Positions 5,251 through 60,787 of a stretch of DNA of 64,000 nt are shown here, piece by piece. The stretch lies in contig NC_057718.1 of assembly GCF_004010195.1 (NCBI RefSeq), positions 105,585,024 through 105,649,023 on the forward strand. The letters are read 5' to 3'. The stretch is from Chiloscyllium plagiosum (lineage: Eukaryota). The translations under genes and the position numbers were made by a program. How positions within the stretch are numbered: the stretch's first letter is position 1; every line of letters starts with the position of its first letter. Under the pieces are notes generated by a model, which searched no databases, was not told the DNA's origin, and saw only the letters and a list, made by a program, of their open reading frames with translations.

Positions 5251-6230
5251 TGAGGTACTTATTGAGTCACATAAATCCGTGTTGAGCATATCTGTACCCT
5301 CAATTTTTCCTCACTATCCAATCCTCTGATTAAGATGAACTCCCTAAAGTCCTTCCCACACTATTGGTTATGCAGTTTGTTCATTGCATTGCCATAGGTA
5401 TTTGGCCTGTTGAATATCAAGTCTATAAATGTTTTAAACTTTCACTTATGATACTTCTTCATCATTCTAAAATACTTGAGGCACTCAGTTTTTTTTAATG
5501 TGCACTTTATACTTGTACGTAAAATTCATTCTTCACACAAGTACATATTATTTAACTTAGTTTTGTTTGTGAATTGGCTGCATTCCCCCCTCACATTCAA
5601 GTTTTTACTTTGATATGATATATAAATCTCACCAATTTACATTCACATCAAGTTCTAAATAAAAGTTAGGAACAATAGGCATCTAGATTGCCTCACTGAA
5701 GGAAGCATTCTTTCTACATTTGTCACCTTCCTTTAGTACCTTACGGATCTTAATTAGATCTCCTCCATTCTTCCAAACTCCAGAGAGTATCGACTTAAAC
5801 TGCTCAACCTCTCTTCATTAGACACATTCCTGACCTCCAATCCAATGAACCTCCTCTAAGCGGCCTCCAATACAATTGCATCCTTCCTCAAGGAGAAAGT
5901 GAGGTCTGCAGATGCTGGAGATCAAAGTTGAAACTTTATTGCTGGAACAGCACAGCAGGTCAGGCAGCATCCAGGGAACAGGAGATTCGACGTTTCGGGC
6001 ACAGGCCCTTCTTCAGGAATGAGCAGAGAGTGTTCAGCAGGAGAAGATAAAAGGTAGGGAGGAGGGACTTGGAGGAGGGGCGTTGGAAATGTGATAGGTG
6101 GAAAGAGGTCAAGGTGAGGGTGATAGGTCGGAGTAGGATGGAGCTCTTTCCACCTATCACATTTCCAACGCCCCTCCTCCAAGTCCCTCCTCCCTACCTT
6201 TTATCTTCTCCTGCTGAACACTCTCTGCTC

Positions 6231-6266
6231 ATTCCTGAAGAAGGGCCTGTGCCCGAAACGTCGAAT
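6231..6266 (+). ncRNA. Type I minimal hammerhead ribozyme motif (mirror copy on - strand 5985-6020)
   Basis: attc CTGAAGA a gggc-ctgt-gccc GAAA CGTC gaat: stem I attc/gaat, intact core, ACGU palindrome. Confidence 0.85.
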
Positions 6267-6309
6267 CTCCTGTTCCCTGGATGCTGCCTAACCTGCTGTG
6301 CTGTTCCAG

Positions 6310-7021
6310 NNNNNNNNNNNNNNNNNNNNNNNNNNNNNNNNNNNNNNNNNNNNNNNNNNNNNNNNNNNNNNNNNNNNNNNNNNNNNNNNNNNNNNNNNNN
6401 NNNNNNNNNNNNNNNNNNNNNNNNNNNNNNNNNNNNNNNNNNNNNNNNNNNNNNNNNNNNNNNNNNNNNNNNNNNNNNNNNNNNNNNNNNNNNNNNNNNN
6501 NNNNNNNNNNNNNNNNNNNNNNNNNNNNNNNNNNNNNNNNNNNNNNNNNNNNNNNNNNNNNNNNNNNNNNNNNNNNNNNNNNNNNNNNNNNNNNNNNNNN
6601 NNNNNNNNNNNNNNNNNNNNNNNNNNNNNNNNNNNNNNNNNNNNNNNNNNNNNNNNNNNNNNNNNNNNNNNNNNNNNNNNNNNNNNNNNNNNNNNNNNNN
6701 NNNNNNNNNNNNNNNNNNNNNNNNNNNNNNNNNNNNNNNNNNNNNNNNNNNNNNNNNNNNNNNNNNNNNNNNNNNNNNNNNNNNNNNNNNNNNNNNNNNN
6801 NNNNNNNNNNNNNNNNNNNNNNNNNNNNNNNNNNNNNNNNNNNNNNNNNNNNNNNNNNNNNNNNNNNNNNNNNNNNNNNNNNNNNNNNNNNNNNNNNNNN
6901 NNNNNNNNNNNNNNNNNNNNNNNNNNNNNNNNNNNNNNNNNNNNNNNNNNNNNNNNNNNNNNNNNNNNNNNNNNNNNNNNNNNNNNNNNNNNNNNNNNNN
7001 NNNNNNNNNNNNNNNNNNNNN
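6310..7021. other. Assembly gap (N run)
   Basis: Run of N. Confidence 1.
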
Positions 7022-9084
7022 GGTAGTGCCGATACAGTCATCAATGTAGCGGAGGAAAAGATGGGGGGTGGGGCCAGTGTAGTTGCGGAAGATGGATTGT
7101 TCCACATACCCTACGAAGAGGCAGGCATAGCTGGGGCCCATGTGGGTGCCCATGGCTACTCCTTTTGTTTGGAGAATTGGGAGGATTGGAAAGAAAAGTT
7201 GTTCAGGGTGAGGACCAGTTCGGTCAGTCGAAGGAGGGTGTCGGTGGAGGGGTACTGGGTGGTACGGCGGGAAAGGAAGGAGCGGAGTGCTTTGAGTCCT
7301 TCGTGATGGGGGATGGAGGTGTACAGGGACTGGATGTCCATGGTGAAGATGAGGCGTTGGGGACCGGGAAAGCGGAAATCCTGGAGGAGGTGGAGGGCGT
7401 GGGTGGTGTCACGAACGTAGGTTCCTCAAGTAAAGGGTCCAAAATTGTGTGCAATACTCCAGTTGCCGTCTCATTGATGCCTTTTTACACTCTATTCCTT
7501 TCATAATAAATGCCCTCCTGATTACCTGCTGTACCTGCATATTAGTTTTCTGTGATTCATGCAAAAGGACACCCAGATACCTCTGCACTACTCTGAAGTT
7601 TCTCTTCATGAATTACTTCAGATACTATGTTGCAATTTTTAAAAAAGTTTCTAATAATCTTATACAGTTCTCACTCATACACTTGATATGAAAAAAATGC
7701 CCATAAAAACCCATTCAGATTTTTTCCAACTTAAGTGTTGAATCTAATGTAAAAGCAAAGTTCTATCTAGACTCTATATCAGATAGCCAATCCTTTAATA
7801 GTATGTTTAAATTGTCAATCAAAGTAAAAAGGAAGAACTCCCAGCTGAGATAATCCACAGAACATGAAATAAATCAATTTTTCTGCAATCCATTAAAATT
7901 CTAGTCCGAAATAATATTAACAATATGATGAAATATTAAGCATCTTGATAACAGAAACAGAGTAGCAGATCTGAGTCAGCTGGGGATATTGTGCCAAAGG
8001 CCAAGAATAACTAACATTGAGACACACAAAATGAAGCAAAACTACAAGGTTAATGCAACAGTGCTGGAACTACTGATAATTGAAATAAAATGCTGGAATT
8101 AATGCTGTTGTTGCAGTAGTGAAATCTATTATAACAGGACAAATATGTGGCTGAATCCAGAGTTAAATTTTAACTTAATTTGAAGTGGTGTAGTTCTCAG
8201 ATAGCAATGGAGATGGTGTAGTTAGTTCTGTCATAGGAGGAGGGAGGGAAGTGAAGTGGTTTTTGTGAAATAAGCACAGATATGCCAAATAATGAACTAT
8301 CGAGATGAGAAAACAATTAAGAGGTACAGTTTGCTCTGAAAAGATATAGAGTGATTTTACGAAGAGGAAAGCTAAATTTAACAGGTAATTTAAATCAAGC
8401 GTTTTTGGCAACTATACAAGATAACTCAATGAGTAGAGGTTGCCATTGAGGCAAGTGTTCATCTTGAGTACGCCTTCATAAATGACCCAAACAACATATT
8501 ACAATTGGAAACTGTCGCACCTTTGAGATAAAACAAGCATAAAATCACACAGTTCACAATAGCATATCTGAAATCCAGATCCAAAGACCAGGAAATGGCC
8601 TAAATAGGACAGAACTCTCAGAAATGAGGGAAGAAATAAATGTCGGAGAAAGTTAGTTTGCATGTCAGTAGAAGACACGAGACTAAATGCTTGCTGTTGA
8701 GTATGCAGGCTAAATCAACATGTAGCATCAATAGGTTCAGACCAAATACACATGATGCTAAATAGATTAACAAGCAACTTAAAAAATAGTAAAGAAGAAA
8801 AATGACCTTAACAAATCTTGCAGACAGGAAGCTGAGAAGGTTCACTGGGATGAAAACAGCAACATGCAGAAACAGGTCAAAAGGTTGATCGTAAGGGCAA
8901 AGAGAGACCTAGAAAAAAGCAAGCTGCAGAGGCAAAGCATAATGAGAATGAAATTCTATCAGTATTATAACAGTAATAGAAATGTCAGAAGAAGGGAGAA
9001 TATTAAAAGATGCAAAAAGGGCAAAAGAGATAATAAATTTCATAAAGAAAGAATGAATGAATTTGTATTTATATAACACTCCTC

Positions 9085-9430
9085 ATAATCATACAGCATG
9101 GAAACAGACCAGAGTCCGACCAGTCCGTGCCGAATATATTACCAAATTAAACTAGTCCACCTTGCAGCACTTGGCCCATATTCCTCCAAACTATTCCTAT
9201 TCATGTAATTATCTAAATGTCTTTTAAATGTTGTAATTGTATCTGCATCCACCATTTCATTTCACACACTAAACACACTGTCTAAAAATGCTGTCCCTCA
9301 TGTCCTTTTTAAATCTTTCTCGTGTCACCTTAAAAACATGCTCCCTAGTCTTGAAGTCCCCCACCCTGGGGAAAAGACCCTTGCTATTCACTTTATCCAT
9401 GCCACTCATGATTTTATAAACCTCTATGAG
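9085..9430 (-). mobile_element. CR1 LINE 3' end
   Basis: Shares the 3' sequence (cagcatggaaacagacc...aaatgttgtaattgta) with other CR1 copies in the window. Confidence 0.7.
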
Positions 9431-9749
9431 ATTAATCTCAGGGCATCACAAAGCTCTTCCAAACAAGTGGATAATGGTAACCAATTTGGGCACAAGCTCC
9501 CACAAACAGCAATGAAAGAGTGTGCTGCTACGGTCAAGATGGCCATCAACAATTGCGACCAGCACTGATGCTAATGACATCACACAGTTGGGGAGGGTCT
9601 TCTGACTGCTCTTCTAGCCCCATCCTGCCCCACATCCATTTCCCCACTCATCCCTCTCCACCTGACCCCCATGCGCCCCCTCCCCCGTCCAATCTCCCAT
9701 GCGCCCGTGTCCCTGTCCGCCCACACTCCCCGTAGGTCACAGCTTAGCA

Positions 9750-12000: not shown

Positions 12001-12039
12001 TAACCCTTTAACAACAAGGAATTGTTTGACGATTGATCA

Positions 12040-13558: not shown

Positions 13559-14184
13559 TATGTGCAAGTGTGGTGCATTCATTGAATAATCATTGATGTA
13601 CATATGAAAGGACACAGATGGATTGTGGAGTTAGGAGCTATACATTTGCAATTTTTCACTTTGTTAAATAGTTTGACTTGACGGTTAGTCTTCTCCTTCA
13701 GCAAATAGCTCTGAAAAATGTATCTGCTAGTTCTTTCTTGTAGGTAACTAACATGTGATATGTTGAATTTTTGTGTTGTAAAATTCAACAATGCTGCCCT
13801 TGTACAGCACTAACCCACATCCAAGAAAAGCCGAATGATTGCACTTCACCTTGTCACTTGTCCCAAGCCCTCAGCATCATCATTCTCCAGAACTGTATTG
13901 CCATCCCTGTTACTATTCCCAAGAACATCTCTACCAGTCCCAGTAAAATCCTAGTAACTCCTTCCCATGTGCTCAAACAATCCAGGACAGTTTTCCCTGT
14001 GCTGCCAAATCCCAACCTATCCACCTAGAGTTCTTTAAAACTACCAAATTTGTCTCACTCTGCAGCTTCAGCTGCTCAGTCCAAAACAATTCGCCCAACA
14101 GCATCGAATTCACGATTGGAGACAATAACAGAGAGTGGTGAACTCGGCCCAGACAATCACAAAGTCCAACCTCCCATCTACAGA

Positions 14185-14403
14185 GGAGAAAGTGAGGTCT
14201 GCAGATGCTGGAGATCAGAGCTGAAAATGTGTTGCTGGAAAAGCGCAGCAGGTCAGGCAGCATCCAGGGAACAGGAGAATCGACGTTTCGGGCATAAGCC
14301 CTTCTTCAGGAATCCTGAAGAAGGGCTTATGCCCGAAACGTCGATTCTCCTGTTCCCTGGATGCTGCCTGACCTGCTGCGCTTTTCCAGCAACACATTTT
14401 CAG
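14185..14403. mobile_element. Palindromic mini-Penelope insert, 14-bp TSD ctcccatctacaga
   Basis: Perfect 94-bp arms 14218-14311 and 14313-14406 plus a 33-nt unpaired tail. TSD at 14171-14184 and 14404-14417. Confidence 0.92.
14310..14347 (+). ncRNA. Type I minimal hammerhead ribozyme motif (mirror copy on - strand 14277-14314)
   Basis: gaatc CTGAAGA a gggc-ttat-gccc GAAA CGTC gattc. Confidence 0.88.
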
Positions 14404-15299
14404 CTCCCATCTACAGAATCCATTTACCGCTGTCAAGGAAAGGCTGCCAGCATTCTCAAAGATCCATCCCACCCTGGCAATGCTTTTATACAACTTCTAC
14501 CATCGAGGAGAAGGTACAGAAGCCTGAACACATGCACCAGCCGGTTTTGTAACAGTTTCTACCCTACTGTTGTTAGAATACTGAATGGACTCTCAAACTC
14601 TTAACATTTGCCTGTACCTGTGTTTTTGCTTTTGCTGTTGTTTGCCTTTTATTTACTTATCTATGCTACTTAACTCTGTGATCTGCCTGTATTGTTTGCA
14701 AGACAAAGCTTTTCACTGTGCCTCGGTACACTTGACAATAAATTCAATTCAATTCACAGACTCCAAAACTGTTATGGAGTGCACCTTGAACATGGTACAC
14801 ACTTCAGGTACTGCATATCTGTATATTCACAGTCAGAACTTTTGAAGTAGCAGGTGGGTACATTACAATGCGATTTGAGAGATTTAAGCAAGTCGTCGTT
14901 GCATTTAAATAAAGATCTTTAAAGTAAAAACACAATATAATAACAGAAGGAAGGCATTTAGCACCCTTGTCCCTAGAATGGCTCTGCTGTTCAAGCCTAA
15001 TTTAGCTTAAACTATGTAGTTGGCTTTAAAGTGAAACCTGCAGTTTAAAATTTTGCTGTTGTGAGCTTTGAGCAAGTTTATGTTCAAGAGGTGCACTGAA
15101 AGAGCAGCCTAATTTAAGTGGCTGAAACTAGATCCTCAAGAATAGACTAAGACAAGCCCTTTGCATTGGAGGCATATGTAAGTAGCCAACTTAATGAGAC
15201 TTGTACCTAAGAGTGTGACTTACATGAGTGTCAGAGTTGAGCATCTCAAGTAGTTCAATGGAGGAAGCTGCGACAATACTATGGCATTAATAGGGGCAT

Positions 15300-16840: not shown

Positions 16841-17687
16841 CCCCATACCATGTGAATTTATGTGTACATTTGGAGGAAGTGGGTGAGGTTCTTAAGGAAT
16901 ACATTGCAACAGTATTCACAAAGGAAAAGGATGGGGTGAATGAGTCCAAAAGTAGAGGGCATAGGGTCAGGGTGAGAGGGGAATGATATAAAAGGGACCT
17001 AAGGGGCAACCTTTGCATGCAGAGGGTGGTGCATGCATGGAATGAGCTGCCATGGGAAGTGGTGGAAGCTGATACAATTACAGCATTTAAAAAGCATCTA
17101 GGTGGATATATGAAAGGGTCTGTTTCCGTGCTGTATATCTCTATGACATGGTGGATGGCGAGTCTTGGGAGGGGGTATAGTGATATTCTAGGGCATGCCA
17201 CCATAAAAATGGTGATGGTGTTGGGTATTTTGGAAAGCATTAAAGAAGACAAGTTCTGGGATCTATCCCAAAATGCTAAGGGAGGCAGGTTAAATAATTG
17301 CTGAGGCCTTGTACTAAATCTTTGTATCCTCTTTCATCACAGAAGAGGTCCCAGAGAACTGGAGAATTGCCAACATTGTTCCTTTGTTTGAGAAGGGTAA
17401 CAGGACAAATCCAGAAAATTATAGGTCAGTGGGCCTTACATCAGTGTTAGGGAAATTAATGGAGAATATTCTTAGGGATTGGATTTACTCACATTTAGAA
17501 AACTATGCATGTATTAGCGATTGGCAGCATGTCATTGTGTGGGGAAGGTGGTGTCTTACAAATTTGATTGAGTTTTCTGAAAAAGTGACAAAGACGATTG
17601 ATGAAGGCAGGGCAGTTAATGTTGTCCATACGGACTTTAGCAAGATGTTTGACAAGGTCCCTCATGTCAGGCTGATACAAATGTTGA

Positions 17688-17912
17688 CAGTGTGGTGCTG
17701 GAAAAGCACAGCAGGTCAGGCAGCATCCAAGGAGCAGGAGAATCAACGTTTCAGGCATAAGCCCTTTGTCAGGAATGAAATTCATTCCTGATGAAAGGCT
17801 TATGCCCGAAACATCGATTCTCCTGCTCCTCGGATGCTGTCTGACCTGCTTCGCTTTTCCAGCACCACACTGTCAACTCGGATCTCCAGCACCTGCAATC
17901 TTCACTTTCTCC
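17688..17912. mobile_element. Palindromic mini-Penelope insert in a CR1 RT, 15-bp TSD tgatacaaa(t/a)gttga
   Basis: Imperfect ~95-bp arms centred near 17780 with decayed hammerhead cores. TSD at 17673-17687 and 17913-17927. Confidence 0.88.
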
Positions 17913-20759
17913 TGATACAAAAGTTGAAGTTACATGGGTTTTGTGGTGAGCTGTGGTAAGATGGATGCAGAACTGCCTTGGTCATAGATGACAGAGTAAT
18001 AGTGGAAGGGTGTTTTTGTGACTGGATATATGTGACCAGTGGTGTTCTGTAGGGATCAATGCTGGGGCCCTGTTGTTTTATTAATATATTTAAATATTTG
18101 GAGGAGAATGTAGGTAGCCTGATTAGTAAGTTTGCAGACAACACAAAGACTGGGGACATTGTGGATAGTGAGGACTACCAGAAGGTAGAACAAGATGTAA
18201 ATAAACTTGAAAATTAGGTGGAAAAATGGCAGATGGAGTTTAATATAGACAAATGCAAGGTGATGGATTTTGGGAGATCTAACGCAGGAGGGAAGTATAC
18301 AGTAAATGGCAGAATCCTAAGTAGCATCAATATACAGAGGCATGCAGATATTCAGGTCCACAGTTCCATGAAAATTGCAACACAAGTGGATAAGCTGGTC
18401 AAGAAGGCATATGGTATGCTTGTCTTCATTGGTCTAGGCATAGAGTATAAAAATTGGCAAGTCATGTTGCAGCTGGATAGAACTTTAGCTAGGCCTCTTT
18501 GGAATACAGTGTACAGTTCTTGTTGCCACATGACAAGTGTGGAGGCTTTGGAGAGGATACAGAAGCACTATGCGCCAGGATGTTGCTGGGTTTCGACAAT
18601 ATTAGCTATGAAGAGAGATTGGATAAACTTGATTTGCTTCCAATTGAACTTTGAAGCTAAGGGGCGACCTGATTGATGCTTATAAAATAATGAAAGGGAT
18701 GGATAGAATGGATAATCAGTCTTTTTTCCCAGCATAGAAATGTCAACTCCTGGGGGACATAGGTTTAAGGTAAAAGGGGGTACATTTAAAGGGACATATG
18801 AGAGGCAGGTTGTTTATTTTTAAACACAGAGGGTGGTAAGTGCCTGGAAATGTGCTGCCAGCAGTGGAGGAGGCAGGTACAATAGCAACGTTTAAGAGGT
18901 ATCTTGACAGAAACATGAATAGAGGGATATGGACTGTGTAAAGGCAAAAGACTTTTAGTTTAAAAAGGCACCATGAATCTGTATAGTTATGGTGAGCTTA
19001 ATGGCCTGTTCTCCTGCTGTATTGTTCTGTGATTACTTTCACATTATACCCAAGCCGAGAGCAAACTGGCTTAGGGTAAATAAATTCAAAGAGTTAAATG
19101 CACAGCTTGGAAACTGGTGTAGGTAGAATGGATTTCAGTTCATGAGGCATTGACAGCAGTACTGGTGGAGAAAGGAGTTGCCCTAGTGGGTTGGCCTTTA
19201 CTTGAACTCTGCTGGGACAGTGCCCTGGCAAATCAAATAACTAAGGTTGTAGAGAGGGCTTTAATCTAATGTGGGGGAGGGTTCTGGAGAGGCAATTTGT
19301 GGTGGCTTTGCAGGGCTGCAATTTTGATATCCAAAGTATGATTAGAAGGGACAGAGTGTACAAGCATAAAAAAGCAACATATAGGTCAAAGTGTGAATAA
19401 AATGGTAAAAAGGCAAAAGGGCAAAAAGGCTCTGTACCTAAATGAATGTACAATCTGGAACAAAATAAATAAATTAACAGCAGAATACAGGTTGATGGCT
19501 ATGTTCTTACTGCCATTACGGAGATATGATTACAAAGAGATTAAAGCTGTGAACTAAATTCATATTTCATCTGCTAGTTAGCCATTCCTCAATCAAAACA
19601 AATAGATTACCCCAATACTATGAACTCTTTTCTTGTACATTAAACTTTTTATGTGGCACATTATTAAATGCCTTTTGGAAATCCAAATGTATTATATTTA
19701 CTGGTTCACCTTTATCAATCCTGCTTGTTAATATCCAAAAACTCTAATAAATTTGATGAATATGAAAAAAAACTTTAAAAATAGATGTTAATAAATATGG
19801 ACAGCTTTTCTAAGTTTATTGCAAGTGCTGAAATTATCACCAGCCAATTACATAATTGTTGGGTTTTATATATTCAAACAATTTCCATGCCTTTTAGGTC
19901 AGTTGATCCAATCAGATAAAGTTCCAATAAACCTTCTATAACATTACTGCTGCAGGCAGTGAGAATACAATACTAAGTTAGCCCCCCGTAACCTTCTGCA
20001 AAAGCGCTCTGGAAAAACTTGCAATGATTCCTGTATAAATCACAATGCCGCTTCAGGACTACCAAATAGCTGCATTATCCTTGTGAGAGACACAATATCA
20101 ACCATGGTATAATTCTGAGAGCCCATAGTTTGTTTTGAATTTCTTTACAAATTAAACTATCCACATTGCACAAACTAACAGGCTCTCTGAGTCAATTAAA
20201 GGCTGTCACCTGAGCTCCTAAGATTAAGTGACATCTACATATCTCTGAGTTTGCTTTTTTAGTTTGCAATGCTACCTGAATCCCTTGATTGTTACTCAAT
20301 TCCACGTATTTACTGTACATGTATAATACTATGAATGACACCAAGAATTCTACTCTACAGAAAATTTCACTCTACAGATATCGAGGTCTTCACTTCAATG
20401 AAGATATAGCACGAATGGTTTTCCACATCACAGGATAAAATTTATACAAAACTCCTTCTAATTCAGAGGGTTTTATAAGTGGTTTACAGAAAAAAGATGG
20501 TGTTATATATTCATAACACCCATCAGAATTGTATATTAAATAAAGAGGTTATGTTGTATTGATGACCATTATAACAACATACCAATCAAGTGTATGTACT
20601 TAATTTTGCTGTTAAAACTAGTTTGAAGTAAGGATAGTCTACATACAATTTGAAGAATCCCAAATACAAAACAATATAAAACAACAAAATAACAGGTCTA
20701 TTAAAATGATATTTCAAATCTCCCCCAATGTTTGAATGGATATATGTGCTGCATGGCAG

Positions 20760-24894: not shown

Positions 24895-27320
24895 GTAGTT
24901 ATTAGCTAGGACCTTAACATCCCCAATATTGACTGGGAATACTATAGTTCAAGTAGTTTAGATGGGTCAGTTTTTGTTCAATGTTTGCAGGAGGGTTTTC
25001 TGACACAGTATGTAGATAGGCTAACAAGGAACAATGCCATATTGGATTTGGTACTGGGGAATGAACCCGGCCTGTGTTAGATTTGGAGGTAGGTGAGCAC
25101 ATTGGCGATACTGACCATAATTTGGTTATGTTTACAAAAGCAATGTGCAGGGATAGGTATATACCACAGGGAAAGAGGTATAATTGGGGGAAAGGCAATT
25201 ATGATGCGATTAGGTAAGATTTAGGATGGGGAAGGAAACTACAGGGGATGGACACTCTTGAAATGTGGAGCTTATTCAAGGAACAACTACTGCGGGTCCT
25301 TGATAAGCATATATCTATCAGGCAGGGAAGCAGTTATCGAGAGAGGGAGCCATGGTTTACAAAAGAAATTGAAGCTCTTGTCAAAAGGAAGAGGAAGGCT
25401 TATGTGAGGATGAGGCATGAAGGCACAATTAGGGGACTTGAGAGTTATAAGTTAGCCAAAAAAGATCTAAAGAGAGGGCTAAAAAGAGCCAGGACGGGAA
25501 TGATAAGTTGTTGGCGGATAGGACCAAGGAAAACCCTAAGGCCTTTTATAGGTATATTAGGAATAAAAGAATGACTAGAGTAAGATTAGGGCCAACCAAA
25601 GACAGTTGAGGAAAGTTGTGTGTGGAATCTGAGGACATAAGGGAAGCGCTTGATGAATACTTTTTGTCAGTATTCAGATCGGAAAAGGGAAACGTTAGTG
25701 AGAATACAGAGATACGGGCTATAAGATTTAGATGGGATTGAGGTTGACAAAGAAGAGGTTTTAGCAATTTTGGAAGATGTGAAAATAGATAACACCCCTG
25801 GGCTGGATGTGATTTATCTTCAGATTCTCTGGGAAGTCAGGGAGGAGATTGCAGAGCCTTTGGCTTTGATCTTTATGTCAGCATTGTTGACAGGTGTATG
25901 CCAGAAGATTGGAGGATAGTAAATGTTGTTCCCTTGTTTAAGAAGGGGAGTCGGGACACCCCTGGTAATTACAGGCCAGTGGGCCTTACTTTGGTTGTGA
26001 GTAAGGTATTAGAAAAGGTTATAAAAGATAGGACTTATAATCATCTGGAAAGGAATAATTTGATTAGGGATAGTCAACACGGTTTTGTAAAGAGTAGGTG
26101 GTGCCTCACTAACATTGAGTTCTTTGAGAAGGTAACAAATCAGGCGGATGAAGATAAGGCGGTTGATGTGGTGTACACGGACTTCAGTAAAGCATTTGAT
26201 AAGATTCCACACGGTAGGCTAATGCACAAAATCAGGAGTTTCAGGATGGAGGGTGATTTAATGGTTTGGATCAGAAATTGGCTAGCTGAAAGAAGACAGA
26301 GGGTGGTGGTTGATGGGAAATGTTCATCCTGGAGCTCAGTTACCAGTGGTGTGCCACAAGGATCTGTTTTGGGACCACTGCTGTTTGTCGTTTTTATAAA
26401 TGATCAAGATATGGGTGTAGAAGGATGGGTTAGTAAATTTGCAGATGACGCTAAGGTAGGCAGAGTTGTGGACAGTGCCGAAGGATGTTGTGGGTTAGAG
26501 GGACGTAGATAAGATGCAGAGCTGGGCTGAGAAGTGGCAAATGGAGTTTAATGCGGAAAAGTGTGAGGTAGTTCACTTTGTAAGAAATAACAGGAATGCA
26601 GAGTACTGGGCTAATGGTAAAATTCTTGGTAGTGTAGATGAACGGAGAGATCTCGGTGTCCACGTGCATAAATCCCTGAAAGTTGCCACCCAGATTAATA
26701 GGGTTGCTAAGAAGGAATATGGTGTGTTGGCATTTATTGGTAAGGGGATTTTGGAGCCACAAGGTCATGCTTCAGCTGTACAAGACACTGGTAAGGCCGC
26801 ATCTGGAGTTTTGCGTGCAGTTCTGGTCACCACATTATAGGAAGGATGTGGAAGCCTTGGAACGAGTTCAGGCAAAATTTACTAGGCTGCTGCCTGGTAT
26901 GGAAGGAAGGTTTTATGAGGAAAGGTTAAGGAAATGGAGGCTGTTGGAGAGAAGAAGGTTGAGAGGTGACTTAATTGAGACGTGTAAGATAATCAAAGGG
27001 TTAGATAAGGTGGATAGTAAGAACCTTTTTTCATTGGGTGGTGAAGGCTAACACAAGGGGACATAGCTTTTAATTGAGGAGTGATTGATTTAGAAAAGAT
27101 ATTAGGGGTAGTTACTTTACTCAGAGAGTAGTAGGGGTGTAGAATGTCCTGCCTGCCTGAGTAGTAGACTCACCAATGTCAAGAGCATTTAAACGGTCAT
27201 TGGACATACATATGGATAATAATAGAACGAGGTAGGTTAGATGGGCATCAGATTAATTTTGCAGGTCGGTGTAAAATCGAGGGCTGAAGGGCCTGTAGTG
27301 CGCTGTAACATTCTATGTAG
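24895..27320 (+). mobile_element. CR1 LINE ORF2 (end of endonuclease to 3' UTR), frameshifted
   Basis: 'PEDWRIVNVVPLFKKG...NYRPVGLT...DFSKAFDKIPH...GVPQGSVLGPLLF...KFADD' and downstream motifs. Confidence 0.92.
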
Positions 27321-28660: not shown

Positions 28661-29441
28661 TAGGTTGAATCCAGAGTTGAGAGGATTGGATTATGAGGAG
28701 AGATTGAGTAGCCTGGGACTATACTCTTGAAATTTAGAAAAATGGAGGGGGATCTTTTGAAATATATAAAATTACGAAGGGAGTAGGTAAGATAGAAGCG
28801 AGAAAGCTGTTCACTGGTGGGTTATGCTAGATCCAGGTAGCAAAGCCTCAAAAGAAGGGGGAACAGATTTAGGACTGACTTGAGGAAGAACTTCTTCATC
28901 AAAAGAATTCCTTGCCCAGTGAAGCAGATGAAATTACCTTGTTGAATGTTTTTAAGGCAAAGGTAGATAGATTTTTGAATAGCAAAGGAATTAAGGGTTA
29001 TGCTGAGCAACGGGTAAGTAGAGCTAAGTGGGTGGCACGGTGGCACAGTGGTTAGCACTGCTGCCTCACAGCGCCAGAGACCCGGGTTCAATTCCCGCCT
29101 CAGGCGACTGACTGTGTGGAGTTTGCACGTTCTCCCCGTGTCTGCGTGGGTTTCCTCCGGGTGCTCCGGTTTCCTCCCACAGTCCAAAGATGTGCAGGGT
29201 CAGGTGAATTGGCCATGCTAAATTGCCCGTAGTGTTAGGTAGGGGGTAAATGTAGGGGTATGTGTGGGTTTCGCTTCGGCGGGTCGGAGTGGACTTGTTG
29301 GGCCGAAGGACCTGTTTCCACACTGTAATGTAATGTAATCTAATCTAAATCAATGAAAAGACAGGCCATGATCTTACTGAATGCGGAGCAAGCTCAACAG
29401 GCCAGATGGCCTACTTCAAACTCCTATTTCTAATGTTCTTA
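28661..29441 (+). mobile_element. CR1 3' fragment, TSD tgtagc, containing a SINE
   Basis: CR1 3' motifs; tgtagc at 28655-28660 and 29442-29447. Confidence 0.7.
29030..29350 (+). mobile_element. Full-length HE1-type V-SINE
   Basis: tRNA A box (tggcacagtgg) and B box (gggttcaattccc), V-domain (gtggagtttgcacgttctccccgtgtctgcgtgggtttcctccgggtgctccggtttcctcccac), CR1-like tail with (tgtaa/tctaa)n. Confidence 0.9.
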
Positions 29442-32450: not shown

Positions 32451-32782
32451 AGGTGGCATGGTGACTCAGTAGTTAGCACTGCTGCCTCACAGCGCTAAGG
32501 ATCCTCGTTCAATTCCACCCTCAGGTGACTGTGTAAAGTTTGTAAATTCTCCGTGTCTGCATGGGTTTCCTTCGGGTGCTTTGGTTTCTTCCCACAGTCC
32601 AAAGATGTACAGGTTAGGTGAATTGGCTATGCTAAATTGCCCACAGTATCCAGTCATGTGTAGGATAAGTGGATTAGTTATAGGAAATGCATGGTTACAG
32701 GGATAGCAGGTCTGAGTGGGATGATCTTCACAGGGAGGTTTAGATCCAATGGGCCTAATGGCCTGCTTCCACAGAGATTCTA
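32451..32782 (+). mobile_element. HE1-type V-SINE, older copy
   Basis: Colinear similarity to the 29030 copy. Confidence 0.8.
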
Positions 32783-33213: not shown

Positions 33214-34241
33214 TTTGGAGATGCCAGTGTTGGACTGGGGTGTATAAAGTAAAAAATCACACAACACCAGGTTATAGTCCAACAGGTTTGATTGGAAGCA
33301 CTAGCTTCCGGAGTGCTGCTCCTTCATCAGGTGGCTGTAAAGTACATAGATGTAAGACAGAATTTATAGCAAAAGTTTACAGTGTGATGTAACTGAAATT
33401 ATACATTGAAAATACCTTGATTGTTTGTTAAGTTTCCCATCTGTTAGAATGACCATGTTAGTTTCACTTCTTTCATATATATATATATATATATATCTTT
33501 CATATACACATGGGAGTGTTCCCTCCCAGTTGGAGAATACTTCACTGGTCCAGGCCATTCAACCTCAGACCTCCGGGTGACCATCCTCCAAGGCGGACTT
33601 CGGGACAGGCAGCAGAAAAGTGGCCGAGCAGAGGCTGATAGCCACGTTTGGTACCCAAAGGGAGGGCCTCAACCAGGATCTTGGGTGCATGTCATATGAC
33701 AGGTGACCTCATTGCATTACACACACTCACCCTTTCACAGACTTAGGCCCCTTTACATACACACACACATACACACACATATATGTTTGTGAGGTGAATT
33801 TGTACTTGCAGTTACATTGTACTTTGCTCAAAGTCTGCATGAATTCATGTAAGATTCTGTTCCTTCATTTTTTAGATTAGAATCAGTCAAAAGATTATGG
33901 GACTGACAGCAGTACACAGGGAGCTAACACCTCCAACACATTATACGGGCTGACACCAATTGTTAAAGTTCACCTGAGAATGTAACTTTTTAAAAGGTTT
34001 TGCAATTTAAATATGAAAGAAGTGAAACTAACATGGTCATTCTAACAGATGAGAGACTTAACAAACAATCAAGGTATTTTTCAAAGTATAATTTCAGTTA
34101 CATCACACTGTAAACTTTTGCTATAAATTCTGTGTCTTACAATTGTGTCCTTCACAACCACCTGATGAAGGAGCAGTGCTCCGAAAGCTAGTGCTTCCAA
34201 TTAAACCTGTTGGACTATAATCTGGGGTTGTGATTTTTAAC
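33214..34241 (+). mobile_element. Second Penelope-like family: inverted pLTR, GIY-YIG C-terminus, pLTR
   Basis: Inverted arms ~33245-33478 and ~34010-34243. 'SLPVGEYFTGPGHSTSDLRVTILQGG...AEQRLIATFGT..EGLNQDLG'. TSD ttcaacta(a/t)tga at 33202-33213 and 34242-34253. Confidence 0.82.
34159..34193 (+). ncRNA. Type I minimal hammerhead ribozyme motif (mutated mirror on - strand 33299-33333)
   Basis: cac CTGATGA a ggagc-agt-gctcc GAAA GCTA gtg; AGCU palindrome. Confidence 0.8.
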
Positions 34242-51865: not shown

Positions 51866-52937
51866 CCTACCTTCACAAAACAGTGCTGACTATTCCAAAT
51901 CAAATTTTTCCTTTCTAGATGATTACAAATGCTATCTATTACAATCTGTTCCAAAACTTTGCCCACAACAGAAGTAAGGCTCACTGGTCTATAATTACCA
52001 GGGTTGTCTTTACTCCCCTTCTTGAACAAGGGAACATTTGCTATCCTCCACCTTCCGGCACTATTCCTGTAGACAATGACGACAATAAAGAGCAAAGCCA
52101 AAGGCTCTGCAATCTCTTCCCTCAATTCCCAGACAATCCTAGGATAAATCCCATTCAGCCCAAATGACTTATCCATTTTCACACTTTCCAGAATTACTAA
52201 CACCTCCTCCTAATAAGCCTCATCCCATCTACTCTAATAGCCTGTATCTCAGTATCTCCTCAACAACAGTCTTTTTCCTGCTTGAATACTGATGAAAAAT
52301 ATTCATTTAGAGCCTCCCCTATCACCTCTGACTCTATGCACAACTTCCCACTGCTGTCCTTGATTGGGCCTAATCTTACTCTAGTCATTCTATAGGTATG
52401 TCAGGACTAAAATAAAGTTTTAGGGTTTCCTTGATCCTATCTGCCAAAGACTTCTCACGTCCCCTCCTGGCTCTTCTTAGCTCTCTCTTTAGGTTCTTCC
52501 TGGCTAACCGTAACTCTCAAACACCCTAACTGAGACTTCACACCCTCATCTTTACATAAGCCTCCTTCTTCCTCTTGACAAGAGATTCAATTCTTTAGTA
52601 AACCATGGTTTCCTCACTCGACCATTTCCTGCCTGCCGGGCAGGTACGTACTTATCAACAACACACTGTAGCTGCTCCTTGAACAAGCTCCACTTTCAAT
52701 TGTGCCCATCCCCTGCAGTTTCCTTCCCCATCCTATGCATCGTAAATCTTGCCTAATCGCATCATAATTGCCTTTCCCATGCTATAACTCTTGCAATATC
52801 TACCTATCCTTTTCCACCCGTAAAGTAAACACAATAAAAATGGTAGAACATAGAATATAGAAAAGTACAGACAGAACAGGCCTTTTGGCCCACGACGTGC
52901 CAAGGATTAATCCTAAAAAATTGTGGTCACTATTACC

Positions 52938-53350
52938 TGCAACAACTATTTCTGTCCCTGCTCTATGTCTCCAAAATGGCTTTTCCAGCAACACATTTTT
53001 CAGCTCTGATCTCCAGCATCTGCAGTTCTCACTTTCTTCTAGTTGATTTTAACCTACTGCGAATCCTCTTGCAAGGACGCCTTCCTTGAAGAAGGTCTCT
53101 TCCTCCCTCTACAAGGATTTCAGTGAGTCCCTCTCTCACTGCACCCCCCAGGTCATCTCCTCTGCCCTGAAGCTCTTCAGCCACGTCCTCAAATAGACTC
53201 GCTACCACAGCCACATCTCCATTCCTGAAGAAGGGCTTATGCCCAAAACATTGATTCTCCTGCTCCTTGGATGCTGCCTGACCTGCTGCACTTTTCCAGC
53301 AACACATTTTTCAGCTCTGATCTCCAGCATCTGCAGTCCTCATTTTCTCC
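52938..53350 (+). mobile_element. Penelope insert with direct tail repeat, ORF 5' fragment and templated 5' patch; TSD actattacc
   Basis: Tail copies at 52979-53039 and 53291-53350; 'ALKLFSHVLK*TRYHSHIS'. TSD at 52929-52937 and 53352-53360. Confidence 0.8.
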
Positions 53351-54950
53351 TACTATTACCAAAGTGCTCACTTACACTCAATTCTAACACCTGGCCTGGT
53401 TCATTATCCAGTACCAAATCCAATGTGGCCTTGCCTCTTGTTGGCCTATCTATATACTGTGTCAGGAAACCGTCCTGCACACATTGGACAAAAACTGACC
53501 CATCTAAAGTACTTGAATGATAGCATCTCCAGTAAATTTAAGAAATTAAAGTCCCCCATAACAACTACCCTTTTTTTCTCACTTCTATCCAGAATCATCT
53601 TTGCAATCCTTTCCTCTGCATCTCTGGAACTTTTCAGAGGCCTATAGAAAACTCCCAACAGGGTGACCTCTCCTTTTCTGTTTCTAACCTCAGCCCACAC
53701 TACCTCGCAGTCGAGTCCTCATCAAATGTCCTTTCTGCCACCGTAATACTGTCATTGACTAGCAATACCATATCTCCCCCTCCTACTGAAACATCTAAAC
53801 CCCAGAACCTGCAACAACCATTTCTGTCCCTGCTCTATGTCTCCAAAATGGCTACAACATTGAAGTCCCAGGTATCAATCCACGCTGCAGGTTCACCTAC
53901 CTTATTCCAGATGCTCCTGGTTTTGAAGCAGACACTTTTCAAACCACCTTCCTGCTTGCCGGTACACTCTTGCGACCTTGGGACCTTATTTATGACCTTA
54001 CTACTCTCAATCTCCTGTACACTGGAACTACAATTCAGGTTCCCATCCTCCTGCTGAATTAGTTTAAACACTCCTGAAGAGCATTAGCCAATTCCCCCAC
54101 CCCCCAGGATATTGGTACCCCTCTGGTTCAGGTGTAGACCATCCTATTTGTAGATGTGCCACCCACCCCAAGTGCATTTAAGGGACACAAAAAGAAAGCT
54201 GGAGGTTCTTTAGCCAGAACCTGCATATATCTGAGCTGTTGTCATATTTAGAAGAAAGGTCCAAATTTCTTTTTGTGAGTGGTAGTGACTGACAATTCTA
54301 ATCTTTTACATGTAAGATGGAATCCTAATTAAGCAATTTTATCTGTTTACATTGCAGATGTTCTGCAGAGACATAGAGTCTGTTGGTGATCAGAGATTAG
54401 CAGGTTGGATAAAAGATGGTGCCTGGAGTCCAGGAAATAACATCCGTGCATGATGTTTATCAGAAACGTTCCTACTTTAAGCAAGATTCTTCCTTCTCCC
54501 AAGTGCTTCAATTTCTAAGTCCAGTCTCCTACTGACCATTGATATCCTTCACCTTTTGCAGTAGCAGATGCTCCTGGGCAAATCTCAACTCCTTTTACTG
54601 TATTACAGCAGCTAAAGTTCAAAGCAGCCACCTGTATTATGCCCCCAGTGACCAGGTATCGAAGGGTAAAGTCTGTCTGGATATCTGTTCAGGCTGAGAA
54701 TCTGTGCTGGCCCCAAACTGTTGGCCTGTAAAGATCTATCCAGCGAGTGTAGAAAATAACTATTCTCAAGAAATAGTTCTCAGAAAAGCACAAATGATTA
54801 TATGGAAATTATCAGAAATAGATAAAAACATTGGATTAATGCTATTGGGTACATAATGCACACTGATATCCTCTGCCAGTACATTTATTTGAAAATTAAC
54901 AGATGATTAAATGGGAAGAAAGTACCAAATAAAAGATCAGGAGTATTCAA

Positions 54951-54954
54951 TTAT

Positions 54955-54984
<30 letters not shown>
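54951..54984. repeat. (AT)n microsatellite
   Basis: Direct reading. Confidence 0.9.
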
Positions 54985-54985
<1 letters not shown>

Positions 54986-56293
54986 GACTGAATACTCAAA
55001 GTGCCTTTACGTCTAGATGAACTAATGTGTAATATTAAAATATTTAAAAACAATTGCCCATTAGTTTAAAACAAATGCATTGTCTTTAATTGGGATACCT
55101 GGCTTGTAAACTGTAAAATTACAGTTTGCTTTCGACATTCTGTTCATACTTTTAATGACAGTGTGCAGACATTGAACAATTTATACACAAACTTTAATAC
55201 TTATGTAACTAGTACAAATATTTATTTGTCCTTATTTTTGATGGCATTATTAAATCACTGTCTGAAAAACTGTATTTTTTTCCACCCAATTCACTATAAT
55301 ACTTTCGTGCCCTCTATAATATGCCCTTGTCGATTTTATTATATGGTGCAACCCTCCTCTTGGAATATCAACTATACTTCAACAATACCGTTTAACATTA
55401 TCACCCACCAAACAGCCTGTGTGTCTGAAATAGAATAGGTTTCATTTATGTAAGAAAAAATGAAGCTGGAGATAAAAGTTCCGATTCTGAATTTATATCA
55501 CAAGGAAGCAGAACACTTTAATCATACATTTTAACTGTAATCTTCAAATAATGCATTTCAAAGACTGTATGCAGTCTTGCATAAAAGCAAAGATTAACCA
55601 AACATACCTTTTAAAAGGAACAAAATTAGACTTAAACTTGCAGGTAAAATGAAATGCCACTTACCACTGCTTTCGGTTTTCATTTGCGTTTTGCACCACA
55701 ATTTTGCAACTGTAGGTTTTATTGACTATTTCAACCAGTATTTGGTTGTAAAATATGACATTTTTCTGTGCAGCACTCCCAAATTTACAAACCTGATAAA
55801 GCATCAAATGTTGCCACTACAAACAATTCCTATTCTCACCTGCTTGTATTTATTTTATTGATACATTCTGCAATTTTGTGTTTTAAATTCATGACTTAAT
55901 TACTCAATGCTTAAAAATGTTAAGTGTTCATCATGTAGAATGTCATTCTGTTTCTAGGTAACCCGACTCACTTATCTTGTGAGTAGCTGACCAGGAAAGG
56001 TTCAGTTTGAACCCCAACCTATGCAGTGTTACAGCAGGACATTGCACCCAGATTGGCCTCAGCAAATTCAACAGGATCCCTGCTTCTGATCAGCACCAAT
56101 TGTGGAAAATGCATGTAAATTAATACACAGGAAGGCCAGGATTAAATTCGGCTGTGTCACCTTAATATATTGCTGCCATCCACTGTCAAGGTTCACATCT
56201 GAATTATATCTGACTTGAGACCTTAACTGCATCTTTCCATAGAAGCCACCCAACTGGCTGAGCCATGTTGTCTCGAAGTAGTTAGTGACTGTG

Positions 56294-56410
56294 GACAAAC
56301 AGGAGGCTGGAAGAACATAGCAAGCCAGGCAGCATCAGGAGGTGGAGAAGTCAACATTTTGAGTATTACCCCTTCTTCAGGACTAAATGTGGGGGTGGGG
56401 GGCACTACAA
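56294..56410 (-). mobile_element. Divergent mini-PLE arm with decayed hammerhead (56349-56384)
   Basis: Minus strand reads agtc CTGAAGA aggggtaatactc AAAA TGTT gact; possible TSD tgactgtg at 56286-56293 and 56411-56418. Confidence 0.6.
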
Positions 56411-56924
56411 TGACTGTGTTTTTCTGCGCAGGACCTGCTAAAGGTTAAATATCATACAGGCAAAAGGATTTAAATGCATTAAAATTTGAAGAAAAGGAGT
56501 TCTTGCCTAACATCTTACACAACACAAAGTCCCTACATTTTTCAGGGAACATTGATGCCTAGTTTCTTCAACATCTTTGTTTTTACTGTGTCTGAGATAT
56601 CGCTCCTGAGTAAAATTGCTGAGATCTATGGAGCTCCTTAGAGATACAGCCACCTGTTGCAGTCCCCTCTTTCTCTTAATGCTGTCTTACTCACTTGCCA
56701 GTAGAGGCAGTTCTGCTAGACCACACATGACTGCAGCCAAGCAATGAGAGTCAGCTAATAAAAATGTGACACAGAGATAACTCGCTGCTTAAACAAAGTG
56801 AACATTCCAGAGTGATAAACCACACAAGTTAATCAGCATGCTGAAATGAGAAACCAACAACTAACAGTGTAGTGATTTATTTAAATACTGTAAGTGAGGG
56901 CAATTTCTACCATCAAGCAGCCCT

Positions 56925-57515
56925 AGTCATAGAGATGTACAACACGGAAACAGACCCTTCGGTTCAACTCGTCCATGCTGACCAGATATCCTAACCTAAT
57001 CTAGTCTGATTTGCCAGCACTTGGCCCAGATCTCTCTAAACCTTTCCTATTCATAAACCCATCCAGATGCCTTTTAAATGTTGTAATTGTACCAGCCTCC
57101 ACCACTTACTTTGGCAGGTCATTCCATACACGCACCACTTTGTGTGAAAAAGTTGCTCCTTAGATCCATTTTAAATCTTTCCCATCTCACCTTAAACCTA
57201 TGCCCTCTAGTTCTGGACTCCCCAGCCCAGGGAAAATACCTTGTCTATTTATCCTATCCATGCCCCTCAGGATTTTACAAACCTCTTCAAGGTCACCCCT
57301 CAGTCTCAGAGGTAAAACAGCCCCAACCTATTCAGCTGCTCCCTTTAGCTCAAACCCTCCAATCCTGGCAACATCCTTGTAAATCCTTTCCTAACCCTTT
57401 CAAGTTTCACAACATCCTTCTGATAGGAAGGTGACTAGAATTGCACACAATATTCCAAAAGTGGCCGAACCAATGCCCTGTACAGCTGCAACGTGACCTC
57501 CCAACGCCTATATTC
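56925..57515 (-). mobile_element. CR1 LINE 3' end
   Basis: Reverse complement matches the 35505-36093 copy. Confidence 0.85.
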
Positions 57516-58489
57516 AGCACATAGAGTGAAGTGTCAGGGCATTCTAAAATTGAAAACTGGCTCTGCAAGCAATACAAGATCCGCATTTAAATAAAACATT
57601 CCAATTTCTAAATGATTCCTGTATCCACTCCTGATGCAAACCTGTTCACCTAAGGCAATAAATCAAGCAGCAAACTCCTTAATGACAAGGTTTCTATGCT
57701 TCCTGCCCACAAAAGTGTGGCCTGAGCAAGCCAGTTAACAGCCAAATGAACGACAACTGTGTACCAGATTCATAGCCCCATGTTTTGGGGAAATCAAATT
57801 TTAATAACATAAATAATTTAGTTTAAATCATTTTCTGTGGCTAAATGGGGAGTAGGGGAGAAATTGATAGTAATAAGAATGCAGAGTTTGTACAGCGGGT
57901 GGCAAAGATGATGACTTCAGATTTCTCCATTTTAACTGGAAATTGCAGCCATACGAATACTCAACATCAGACAAGTACAACAGTAGAGTGGATGCAAAAG
58001 ACTGAAGTTAAATTATATTCTTTAAAATAAATGTTTGGAATTTTAATGGCTTAACAGCTTGGTGATGAACAGGGGTCTCTGTAATACAACATTGACTATC
58101 CCACTGAAGTGGAAAATCTTGAAACTAGTGAGGCAGTTGGTTATTTTATATAAAAAGCTAATAGCATAAACCATGTCATGTTCCAGCCTGGGAAAAGCAG
58201 TTACAGACCTTTAGTTGAGGTACATTTCGTTGTAATTCTCGAGAAAATCAGCCTTTCCAGAGCACACAGTTTGCAAGCATTTTAACAAAACCCTCTCCTC
58301 CATATCCCTGCCAAAAGGTGTAACATATTCTGATAGAATTTAACAACCTGCTCTCTGTTTGGAGAAGCAAAGAACTCAGATGCCACAAAAATTAAATTTA
58401 GGACATTCAATTACTCCATGTTAGCAATACAGTAACACGTTGCACGTGAAACACTATAACATTCCTAAAGTAGCTAGTTTCCAAAAAAG

Positions 58490-60530
58490 AGCTAATTAGG
58501 GACCAGAGCTGAAAATGTGTTGCTGGAAAAGCGCAGCAGGTCAGGCAGCATCCAGGGAACAGGAGAATCGACGTTTCGGGCATAAGCCCTTCTTCAGGAA
58601 TCCCTAATTAGGGACCAAAAAGGGGATTTCTGCACAAAGTCAGAGGGCTTGGATAAGGTACTGAATGAATACTTTCTGTCTTCACTAAGAAAATAGACAC
58701 TACCAAAGCCAGAGTGACATAAGGTCGTTGAAACACTGGACAGCTCAAAATTAATTAATAGAAAAGCCTGGCTGTACTTAAATTTACCAAGATGAGAATA
58801 TCTGAAACCAAGGATACTTGGGGAAATAAGTGTGCAAATTAGAGACACACTGATCATACCATATTGCAATCCTCCTTAGGTACGGATGGTGCCAAAAGAT
58901 GGGATAATTGCACTGTTACACCAGTGTTCAAAAGATTGGTTCAAGGACAGATATTTTCTAATCAAATTGTTCAGAGATGCTATTACATGCCTCTGAAGGA
59001 TATGAACCTGGGTCACCTGGCTCAGAAGGATTCAACGATAAGTTAAGCAACTACAGGCCAGTGAGTTTAACCTCCGTGGTGAGGAAAATTATATAAATGT
59101 GAATTAGAACAAAATTAATAGCCATTTAGATGAGTTGAATTAATTAAGGAAAACCAATTTGGATTTGTTAAGGACTAATTGCACTTAAGTAACTTGATTG
59201 AGTTTAGTGATAAGCATCATGCTGTTGATCTGGTGCAGATGGTCTTCCAAAATGCATTTGAAAAAGAACTACATAACAGGTAAAATGAAACCTCATGGAA
59301 TAAAACGGACATCAAAGGGATTCTTGTAGTGCTGTGGTAGTATCCCTACCTCTGAGCCAAGAGATCTGGGCTCAAGTCCCTCCTGTTCCAGACCTGCAAA
59401 ATAACATCGCTGAACAAGTTGATTTATAAAGTATCTAAATTGGACATTGGATGGAAACAAAACTATCTGAGTATTGGGAAACAGAGAGTAGTGGCAAATC
59501 ATTGCTTTTGGGGCTGGAGGAAGATATGAAGTGGGATTCCCCAGGATCAGAATTGGGACCATCGTTTTTCTTTATCTATATTAAATGACCTGGACATTGT
59601 TGTGAAAAGCATAAATTCAAAGGTTGAGGATGACACAGAATTTGGAAGTATAGTGAACTACAAGTAGGACAGACAGAATTCAGGAGGACATAAGTTGGTG
59701 GAAAGGGCTGACAATAAGAAGAAATTCAGTGTAGTTGTGTAAAACAACAGCCTTTCAGGAAGAATGAAGGGAGGCAATATGTAATAAAGGGTACAACACT
59801 AAATGGTGTGGAAGCAAAGGGAATTTGAGGTATATGTACATAAATCATTGAAGGTGACACAACAGGTTGAAACTATATTAATAAGTCACATGGGATGTTA
59901 AGTTTAATAAATAGAGGCATGCAGTACAAAAATAGAGATTATGATGAGCCTTTATCAAACATTCTTGGCATGACACTTTAGGACAAATGTCAATGCACCA
60001 GAAAAGGTACAGAAAAGATTTACAAGTATGGCTCCAGGGATGAGAGACTTCAGTTTAAAGGATACATTGGAAAAGTTAGGGCAGCTGTCCTTAGAGAAGG
60101 CGAGAGGACCTTTGATAGAAGTATTCAAAATCATAAGTATTCTCAACAGACTACAATGGGAGAAACTGGTTCTCACTTGCCCACCAATGGGAACAGAGGA
60201 CACCGATTTTAGATGAATGGCAAAAGGACCAATGGCAACATGAGAATAAACTTTTCATGCGAAAGGTTGGGATCTGCAATGTATCATCTGACAGTGTGGT
60301 GGAGGCAGGTTTGCTTGAGTGATTAGGGTCTGGAATGTACTGCCTGAGTGTGGTGAAGATAGATTCTATCAAAATTTTCAAAATGGGACAAGATAATTAT
60401 TTGAAGAAATAAAATGAAGGGCCTCAGAGAAAGTGTGCAATCAGACTAGCTGAATTGTACTTGCAGAGAGCCAGAAGAGACATGACAGCCCAAATGTCTT
60501 CCTTTTATGTGGTAACTATTCTAAGATTTG
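58490..60530 (+). mobile_element. Old degenerate CR1 ORF2 with mini-PLE and SINE-like inserts
   Basis: aactacaggccagtgagtttaacc (NYRPVSLT), gacctggac...gatgacaca and 'MAPGMRDFSLKDTLEKLGQLSLEK'. Confidence 0.7.
58506..58603 (-). mobile_element. 98-bp single-arm mini-Penelope with intact hammerhead core (58565-58602), 14-bp TSD ctaattagggacca
   Basis: Identical to 14218-14315. TSD at 58492-58505 and 58604-58617. Confidence 0.9.
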
Positions 60531-60557
60531 ATATCAAAGAACAGAAACCAACATATG

Positions 60558-60787
60558 TTTAGATCAGACTGGTGCTGGAAAAGCACAGCAGGTCAGGCAG
60601 CATCCAAGGAGCAGGATAATTGACGTTTTGGGCGTAAGCCCTTCATTAGGAATCATTCCTGACGAAGGGCTTTTGCCCGAAACGTCGATTTTCCTGCTCC
60701 TCGGATGCTGCCTGACCTGCTGTGCTTTTCCAGCACCACTCTGATCTAAACTCTGGTTTCCATCATCTGCTGTCCTCACTTTTGCAT
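60558..60787. mobile_element. Palindromic mini-Penelope insert, 15-bp TSD agaaaccaacatatg; + strand hammerhead 60655-60690
   Basis: Arms centred near 60654; attc CTGACGA a gggc-tttt-gccc GAAA CGTC gatt. TSD at 60543-60557 and 60788-60802. Confidence 0.88.

What the first reader, a model, noticed from the sequence alone, without database searches (positions are those of the whole stretch)
5985..60690. Hammerhead structure covaries across at least three PLE families
The core CUGANGA...GAAA is kept while helices change compensatorily. Stem II: gggc/gccc (loops ctgt, ttat, tttt), ggagc/gctcc, aggtc/gacct. Stem I: attc/gaat, gaatc/gattc, cac/gtg, and in decayed copies agtc/gact and agct/agct. Loop III is always a 4-nt palindrome in intact copies (ACGU or AGCU). 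Older copies lose the core mainly by CpG decay (cGAAAcg to cAAAAca). This supports a functional ribozyme in the source elements; palindromic loop III is the known signature of dimer-dependent minimal hammerheads.
Basis: partly seen in the sequence, partly recalled or inferred. Interest (0 to 1): 0.7.

Follow-up and report, generated by a model that had tools for sequence, protein, structure and literature searches.

The report
Penelope retroelement minimal hammerhead relics
The repeated motif is a real minimal hammerhead-ribozyme sequence carried at the tail end of Penelope-like jumping genes, an already described feature; its stems change in matched pairs between families, so it likely worked in the source elements, while the scattered copies here are probably inert leftovers.

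Summary
Real, but a known kind. The window holds 8 exact minimal-hammerhead motifs (simulated sequence: mean 0.04). One family alone has 87,506 exact genome copies. Families A, B and C sit behind RT plus GIY-YIG frames with a CX2-5CxxC linker, i.e. Neptune-type Penelope-like elements. Cervera & De la Pena 2014 (PMC4209133) already describe these motifs, their covariation, the palindrome and dimer cleavage. Covariation holds in 28 hand-picked copies: 7 of 10 pairs change on both sides, including a core C3-G8 to U3-A8 swap. Corrections: gaatc/gattc is an inverted-junction artefact, and the native main subfamily has a U.U mismatch in stem I. 'Loop III' is two variable bases between core A15.1 and U16.1. 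G12 CpG decay explains 14 of 48 core lesions, not most. One lead: copy 5' ends pile up at the motif's 5' edge, not at the cut site. This scan found the same kind repeatedly on other DNA.

The parts
6231..6266 (+). Family A1 minimal hammerhead, intact core, stem I 4 bp; one arm of a fold-back insertion
5891..6130 (-). Family A1 copy with tail and native upstream pLTR; hammerhead 5985-6020 (C3 at 6016)
14184..14420 (.). Head-to-head pair of family A2 copies joined at 14313; the junction creates the spurious gaatc/gattc stem I of the + copy
17685..17914 (.). Head-to-head pair of partly decayed family A copies
34159..34193 (+). Family B minimal hammerhead (stem I 3 bp, stem II 5 bp, 15.2-16.2 GC); inverted partner with decayed core at C3 33330(-)
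47834..48848 (+). Broken PLE ORF: RT C-terminal part, linker and GIY-YIG endonuclease (profile positions 526-896)
4740..7425 (-). Second broken PLE ORF (RT pieces 7425-7016, endonuclease pieces 5259-4740), interrupted by the A1 fold-back and an assembly gap
48999..49134 (+). Decayed family A copy (G12>A) lying inside the family C pLTR
49195..49232 (+). Family C minimal hammerhead in the pLTR behind the 47834-48848 ORF; inverted partner at 47560-47678(-)
50121..50159 (-). Family F decayed hammerhead (stem I AGCT/AGCT; G12>A)
53220..53351 (+). Decayed family A copy (G12>A)
56349..56384 (-). Family G decayed hammerhead (stem I AGTC/GACT; G12>A)
58501..58601 (-). Family A2 copy, core intact, stem I with U.U mismatch
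60557..60785 (.). Head-to-head pair of family A copies; + copy core intact (C3 60659), stem I with U.U mismatch

Best explanation
These are minimal type I hammerhead motifs in the terminal repeat (pLTR) of several likely Neptune-clade Penelope-like retroelement families, scattered as short tail-end copies through a genome that is likely a shark's. In the source elements the motif was likely under selection to fold as a hammerhead. It would cleave weakly after C17 only when helped, either by a second copy pairing through the 4-base palindrome in a tandem transcript or by the element's own protein, as shown for other PLEs. Copies were likely made by reverse transcription starting in the tail from uncleaved RNA and are now probably decaying neutrally. 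Shown: motif, copy numbers, link to RT/GIY-YIG frames, paired changes, decay pattern. Inferred: cleavage, dimer or protein help, clade name, neutrality.
For: 8 exact motifs against 0.04 expected. Genome counts: A 87,506, B 3,900, C 298, reversed controls 0. A motif follows within 750 nt in 21 of 40 scorable endonuclease ends against 24 of 382 random windows (many of these loci were fetched with a family C query, and 2 rows are the window's own place). B motif follows in 17 of 28 B-endonuclease loci; L274 has YIDD, a CX4CxxC linker and an endonuclease, profile E 2e-92. 28 copies of related families: 93.6% of cells paired, 7 of 10 pairs with two-sided change, slid controls at most 43.9%. U3-A8 in 95 of the first 100 of 1,140 family H matches. 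5' ends lie within 2 nt of the cut site in only 4/167 A, 0/52 B and 0/24 C copies. 3' ends of young A copies are bimodal near +62 and +98, as for the PLE tail (PMC8557442, PMC11167929).
Against: No cleavage assay. Rfam finds no hammerhead. The most abundant subfamilies have a U.U mismatch in a 4-bp stem I. RNAalifold recovers only stem II. The hammerhead fold is the predicted minimum for only 3 of 6 single copies, one of them the junction artefact. The 28 aligned copies were picked for intactness and are related; by my reading of the alignment they reflect about 6-7 independent events. The 'further pair types' measure did not beat shuffles (487/500). Pfam RT and GIY-YIG hits are below curated cut-offs. 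No tree with named Neptune references was built. Non-CpG core sites mutate less (3.0%) than tail sites (5.2%), which I put down to base composition and pooled subfamilies but did not control.
Confidence: 0.85

Rival explanations
1. The fold is kept for a non-catalytic job (protein-binding site, promoter element or RT stop), and cleavage is lost or dispensable, at least in the abundant A2-A4 subfamilies.
For: U.U mismatch in stem I of the most successful subfamilies. Copies derive from RNA spanning the cut site. In the anole element, hammerhead mutants did not affect insertion in vitro and no RNA-seq reads ended at the cut site (PMC11167929, passages read).
Against: The catalytic core is invariant across family majorities. 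The U3-A8 swap keeps a pair that matters for catalysis (C3G/G8C rescue in PMC11167929).
Confidence: 0.1
2. The genomic copies themselves are host-selected working ribozymes.
For: 54 of 87 sampled full-length A motifs keep the core. Non-CpG core sites mutate less than tail sites. Family A RNA reads exist.
Against: Core loss rises with age (G12 changed in 8% of young and 24% of older copies). Most copies are solitary or head-to-head; the latter would give a long hairpin rather than a two-copy ribozyme (inference).
Confidence: 0.04
3. The apparent covariation is shared descent or chance with no structural constraint.
For: Few independent lineages; selected copies; one quoted pair is an artefact.
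Against: Two-sided changes at three stem I pairs, two stem II pairs shared by several copies and the 3-8 core pair, all at the positions the known fold predicts; slid controls fail.
Confidence: 0.01

Closest known systems
Minimal hammerheads (min-HHR) of metazoan Penelope-like elements (Cervera & De la Pena 2014, PMC4209133)
   Same: Type I core without helix III, one extra base between 9 and 10.1, G10.1-C11.1, palindromic 15.2-16.2, short helix I, many families with compensatory changes, mostly single truncated copies, opposite-strand pairs, a U3-A8 variant.
   Different: Host is likely a shark (sharks are not named in the two parts of the text I read; supplements not opened). Copy number is about ten times the 4,000-9,000 reported for coelacanth and Xenopus. 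Helix II is 4-6 bp against 7-8 bp in Schistosoma.
Poseidon element PAc of Anolis (Frangieh et al. 2024, PMC11167929)
   Same: Hammerhead in the pLTR, two 3' end points about 35 nt apart (tail), copies apparently made from uncleaved RNA.
   Different: The families here carry the CX2-5CxxC linker of Neptune/Nematis; protein-assisted cleavage was not tested here.
Non-LTR retrozymes (PMC7229834, listing only; bioRxiv 10.64898/2026.07.22.740005, first part and passages)
   Same: PLE-derived, type I hammerhead, reported in one chondrichthyan.
   Different: Retrozymes are head-to-tail tandem arrays; the window's copies are single or head-to-head and tied to ORF remnants.

Membership tests
PLE min-HHR | Core CUGANGA / GAAA / UH without helix III | tested here: met
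PLE min-HHR | Extra base between 9 and 10.1, and G10.1-C11.1 pair | tested here: met
   Extra base in all 8 exact window motifs; G-C in 7 of 8, A-U in 49199
PLE min-HHR | Palindromic 15.2-16.2 | tested here: met
   CG or GC in the family majorities; 33 of 54 core-intact A copies, the rest mostly CpG decay
PLE min-HHR | Compensatory changes between families | tested here: met
   selected copies, not tree-corrected
PLE min-HHR | Self-cleavage as dimer or with protein help | not testable with these tools
   No assay; poly(A) single-cell reads are uninformative
EN+ Penelope-like element | Single ORF with RT followed by GIY-YIG endonuclease, upstream of the motif | tested here: met
   only broken frames seen; Pfam hits below cut-off, relatives carry PF00078 and often PF01541
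EN+ Penelope-like element | 5'-truncated, inverted copies and optional 30-40 bp tail | tested here: met
Neptune clade | CX2-5CxxC linker between RT and endonuclease (shared with Nematis) | tested here: met
   L164 frame, L274 frame; definition from PMC8557442
Neptune clade | RT phylogeny with named Neptune references | not tested
   No named reference sequences in hand
Non-LTR retrozyme | Head-to-tail tandem units, each with a hammerhead | tested here: not met
   Window copies are single or inverted
Rfam hammerhead families | Match at gathering score | tested here: not met
   expected for a motif without helix III

The most novel reading that the evidence does not exclude
In the Neptune-type families the transcript begins at the first base of stem I (an initiator-like TCA-TTC / TCA-GTT; consensus recalled). 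The tens of thousands of 100-135 bp copies would then be run-off cDNAs from the tail to the 5' end of uncleaved RNA, fold-backs would arise by snap-back at that end, and the ribozyme would be a switch that clips the first ~32 nt and cap off the element's mRNA rather than a cutter of tandem precursors.
Probability: 0.2. Interest if true: 0.45.

Novelty: new member of a known kind. Interest (0 to 1): 0.13.

Why it matters
As a class it adds little: minimal hammerheads in PLE pLTRs, their covariation and palindrome are published. The genome is a useful natural data set, though. With about 90,000 exact copies and a ladder of related families (including a U3-A8 core variant and subfamilies with a broken stem I), it could test the still open question of what the PLE hammerhead does. 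The pile-up of copy 5' ends at the motif's edge is the one lead that bears on mechanism.

Tried and rejected
Rfam: no hammerhead at gathering or at E up to 10; the microRNA-like hits at 6015-6235 come from the fold-back insertion. PDB sequence search with the RT frame: 0 hits. Pfam on four window fragments: nothing relevant. Sequencing runs: no RNA holder listed on record. Raw poly(A) single-cell reads of X22 laid 1,087 reads in both orientations with no place where many molecules begin or end, X23 laid 0; this library cannot show a ribozyme cut and reads may come from any copy, so no conclusion. Co-folding two copies: the 4-base helix is worth only -1.7 to -2.5 kcal/mol and the predicted minimum used it in 1 of 3; thermodynamics alone does not decide dimer formation. 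Rejected: gaatc/gattc as covariation; retrozyme arrays; templating from cleaved RNA. Left open: structure-blind majority motifs for families G and H from tail-only genome hits (counts 2,042 and 2,822), so G rests on 3 aligned copies and 2 of the 4 H rows were found by the motif itself. R-scape was not available. Family B was left out of the pair count because its tail clusters apart. Literature: 6 searches found no paper on shark PLE hammerheads or on 5' ends clustering at the motif; the library lacks most subscription papers and no supplements were opened, where shark examples may be listed.

Full report
Observation. All eight named motifs are in the window at the stated places. A strict descriptor (exact core, one extra base, stem II of at least 3 bp, two bases between A15.1 and U16.1) finds 8 motifs, against a mean of 0.04 in 100 simulated windows; 60 evenly spaced 10-kb genome stretches give 51 against 0-2. 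A tail-seeded search lists 21 further or overlapping copies in the window, most 100-135 bp long, several as head-to-head pairs. Exact genome counts are 87,506 for family A, 3,900 for B and 298 for C, with reversed controls at 0. Rfam has no match, as expected for a motif without helix III.

What carries the motif. The window has two broken ORFs that match a profile built from 70 relatives of a genomic RT frame: 47834-48848 (+) and 7425-4740 (-). That frame (612 aa) has 790 relatives, many with RT and GIY-YIG Pfam domains; the best named ones come from Chiloscyllium punctatum, so the host is likely a shark (inference). Pfam hits on my own frames are below curated cut-offs. Of 48 endonuclease ends, 8 could not be scored; 21 of the other 40 have a motif within 750 nt, against 24 of 382 random windows. 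By sequence these are 10 A, 7 C, 3 E and 1 G; two A rows are the window's own place counted twice, where an A copy lies inside a C repeat, and many loci were fetched with a C query. For B, 17 of 28 endonuclease loci have the B motif 466-716 nt downstream, and L274 holds RT, a CX4CxxC linker and endonuclease ahead of it. The linker marks Neptune or Nematis (PMC8557442, passages and section 6 read). Neptune is inferred, without a tree, because the vertebrate survey found Neptune and Poseidon (bioRxiv 10.64898/2026.07.22.740005, first part and passages read).

Covariation. I aligned 28 real copies, given by coordinates, of the families that share a tail (A1-A4, C, C2, F, G, H) and counted 10 pairs. 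93.6% of cells pair; 7 of 10 pairs have a two-sided change (10 of 500 shuffles reach that; 0 of 500 reach the covariation score); slid structures pair at most 43.9%. The count of further pair types did not beat shuffles (487 of 500). The copies were picked for intactness, 7 came from motif searches, they are related, and one of the 7 pairs rests on the single copy 49199. By my reading there are about 6-7 independent events. The best single piece of evidence was not in the finding: family H swaps the core pair C3-G8 for U3-A8 in 95 of the first 100 of 1,140 matches, none showing C3-G8. Thirty tail-found F copies, though worn, mostly keep the F stems (read by eye). RNAalifold recovers stem II only.

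Corrections. The stem gaatc/gattc at 14310 arises because the inverted neighbour supplies the 5' strand: 0 of 30 fetched copies of this form (of 698) have native upstream DNA and at least 23 abut an inverted copy. With native upstream DNA the strand is ATTC in 32 of 34 sampled A copies and faces GATT in the main subfamily (8,791 exact copies). The most abundant subfamilies therefore have a U.U mismatch in a 4-bp helix; only A1 is fully paired. 'Loop III' is A15.1, two variable bases and U16.1; it is palindromic in 33 of 54 core-intact A copies. CpG sites decay about six times faster than other core sites (74/429 against 26/863), but G12>A accounts for 14 of 48 core lesions and is the only lesion in 8 of 33 broken copies. 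The 49195 stem differs from its family's form.

How it likely works. Shown elsewhere: Schistosoma min-HHRs do not cleave as monomers and cleave weakly as dimers (PMC4209133, parts 1-2 of 4 read); the anole PLE hammerhead cleaves only with the element's protein, cleavage is dispensable for insertion in vitro, and RT starts internally at two tail sites (PMC11167929, passages and section 3 part 2 read). Seen here: 3' ends of 72 young A copies are bimodal near +62 and +98, and 5' ends avoid the cut site (4/167 A, 0/52 B, 0/24 C). Inferred: selection kept a conditional ribozyme in active elements; copies were made from uncleaved RNA and now decay. Head-to-head pairs would transcribe as long hairpins, not two-copy ribozymes (inference). 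Non-CpG core sites mutate less than tail sites (3.0% against 5.2%), so neutrality is likely but not proven. Poly(A) reads do not bear on cleavage.

One lead. 5' ends fall within -5..+4 of C3 in 72 of 167 A, 19 of 52 B and 8 of 24 C copies, but 2 of 11 D and 0 of 10 E; only 2 A copies end between -40 and -16. Local alignment can stop where a conserved motif ends, which may inflate this for old copies; but 20 of 35 young copies with an inverted partner directly upstream show the same. A transcription start at the first base of stem I would explain it (initiator consensus recalled; untested); RT stalling or template switching at the structure would too. My searches found no description of it.

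Verdict. Real, correctly recognised, partly over-read, and of a kind published in 2014. Eight earlier notes of this scan reached the same reading on other DNA; they are unchecked and not counted as support. New member of a known kind; interest 0.13.

Noticed in passing
L276:1468-1537 (-), L207:4816-4885 (+); G000 genome-wide: Family H carries U3-A8 in place of C3-G8, with stem I AGCT/AGCT; 1,140 pattern matches, 95 of the first 100 with U3-A8. Same variant as reported in Schistosoma PLEs. No copy recognised in the window.
   Followed up: yes
random loci L071-L130 and L181-L240: 5' ends of A, B and C copies cluster at the 5' edge of the hammerhead, not at the cut site; D and E do not.
   Followed up: partly
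L094:2161-3010; L221:6085-6157: Two further hammerhead families (D, E) with longer stem II and a U as the extra base; L094 has two same-strand E copies 226 nt apart, a candidate for two-copy cleavage.
   Followed up: partly
window 6015-6235: Sub-threshold Rfam microRNA hits are produced by the perfect fold-back of the A1 insertion; an assembly gap (6310-7021) follows it.
   Followed up: yes
window 25188-27155 and 50544-52778: Two decayed, mutually inverted LINE-type RT fragments (CR1-like; label recalled).
   Followed up: no
window 29028-29338, 32452-32728, 46401-46709, 51550-51858: A separate ~300 bp repeat in four copies, SINE-like (label recalled).
   Followed up: no
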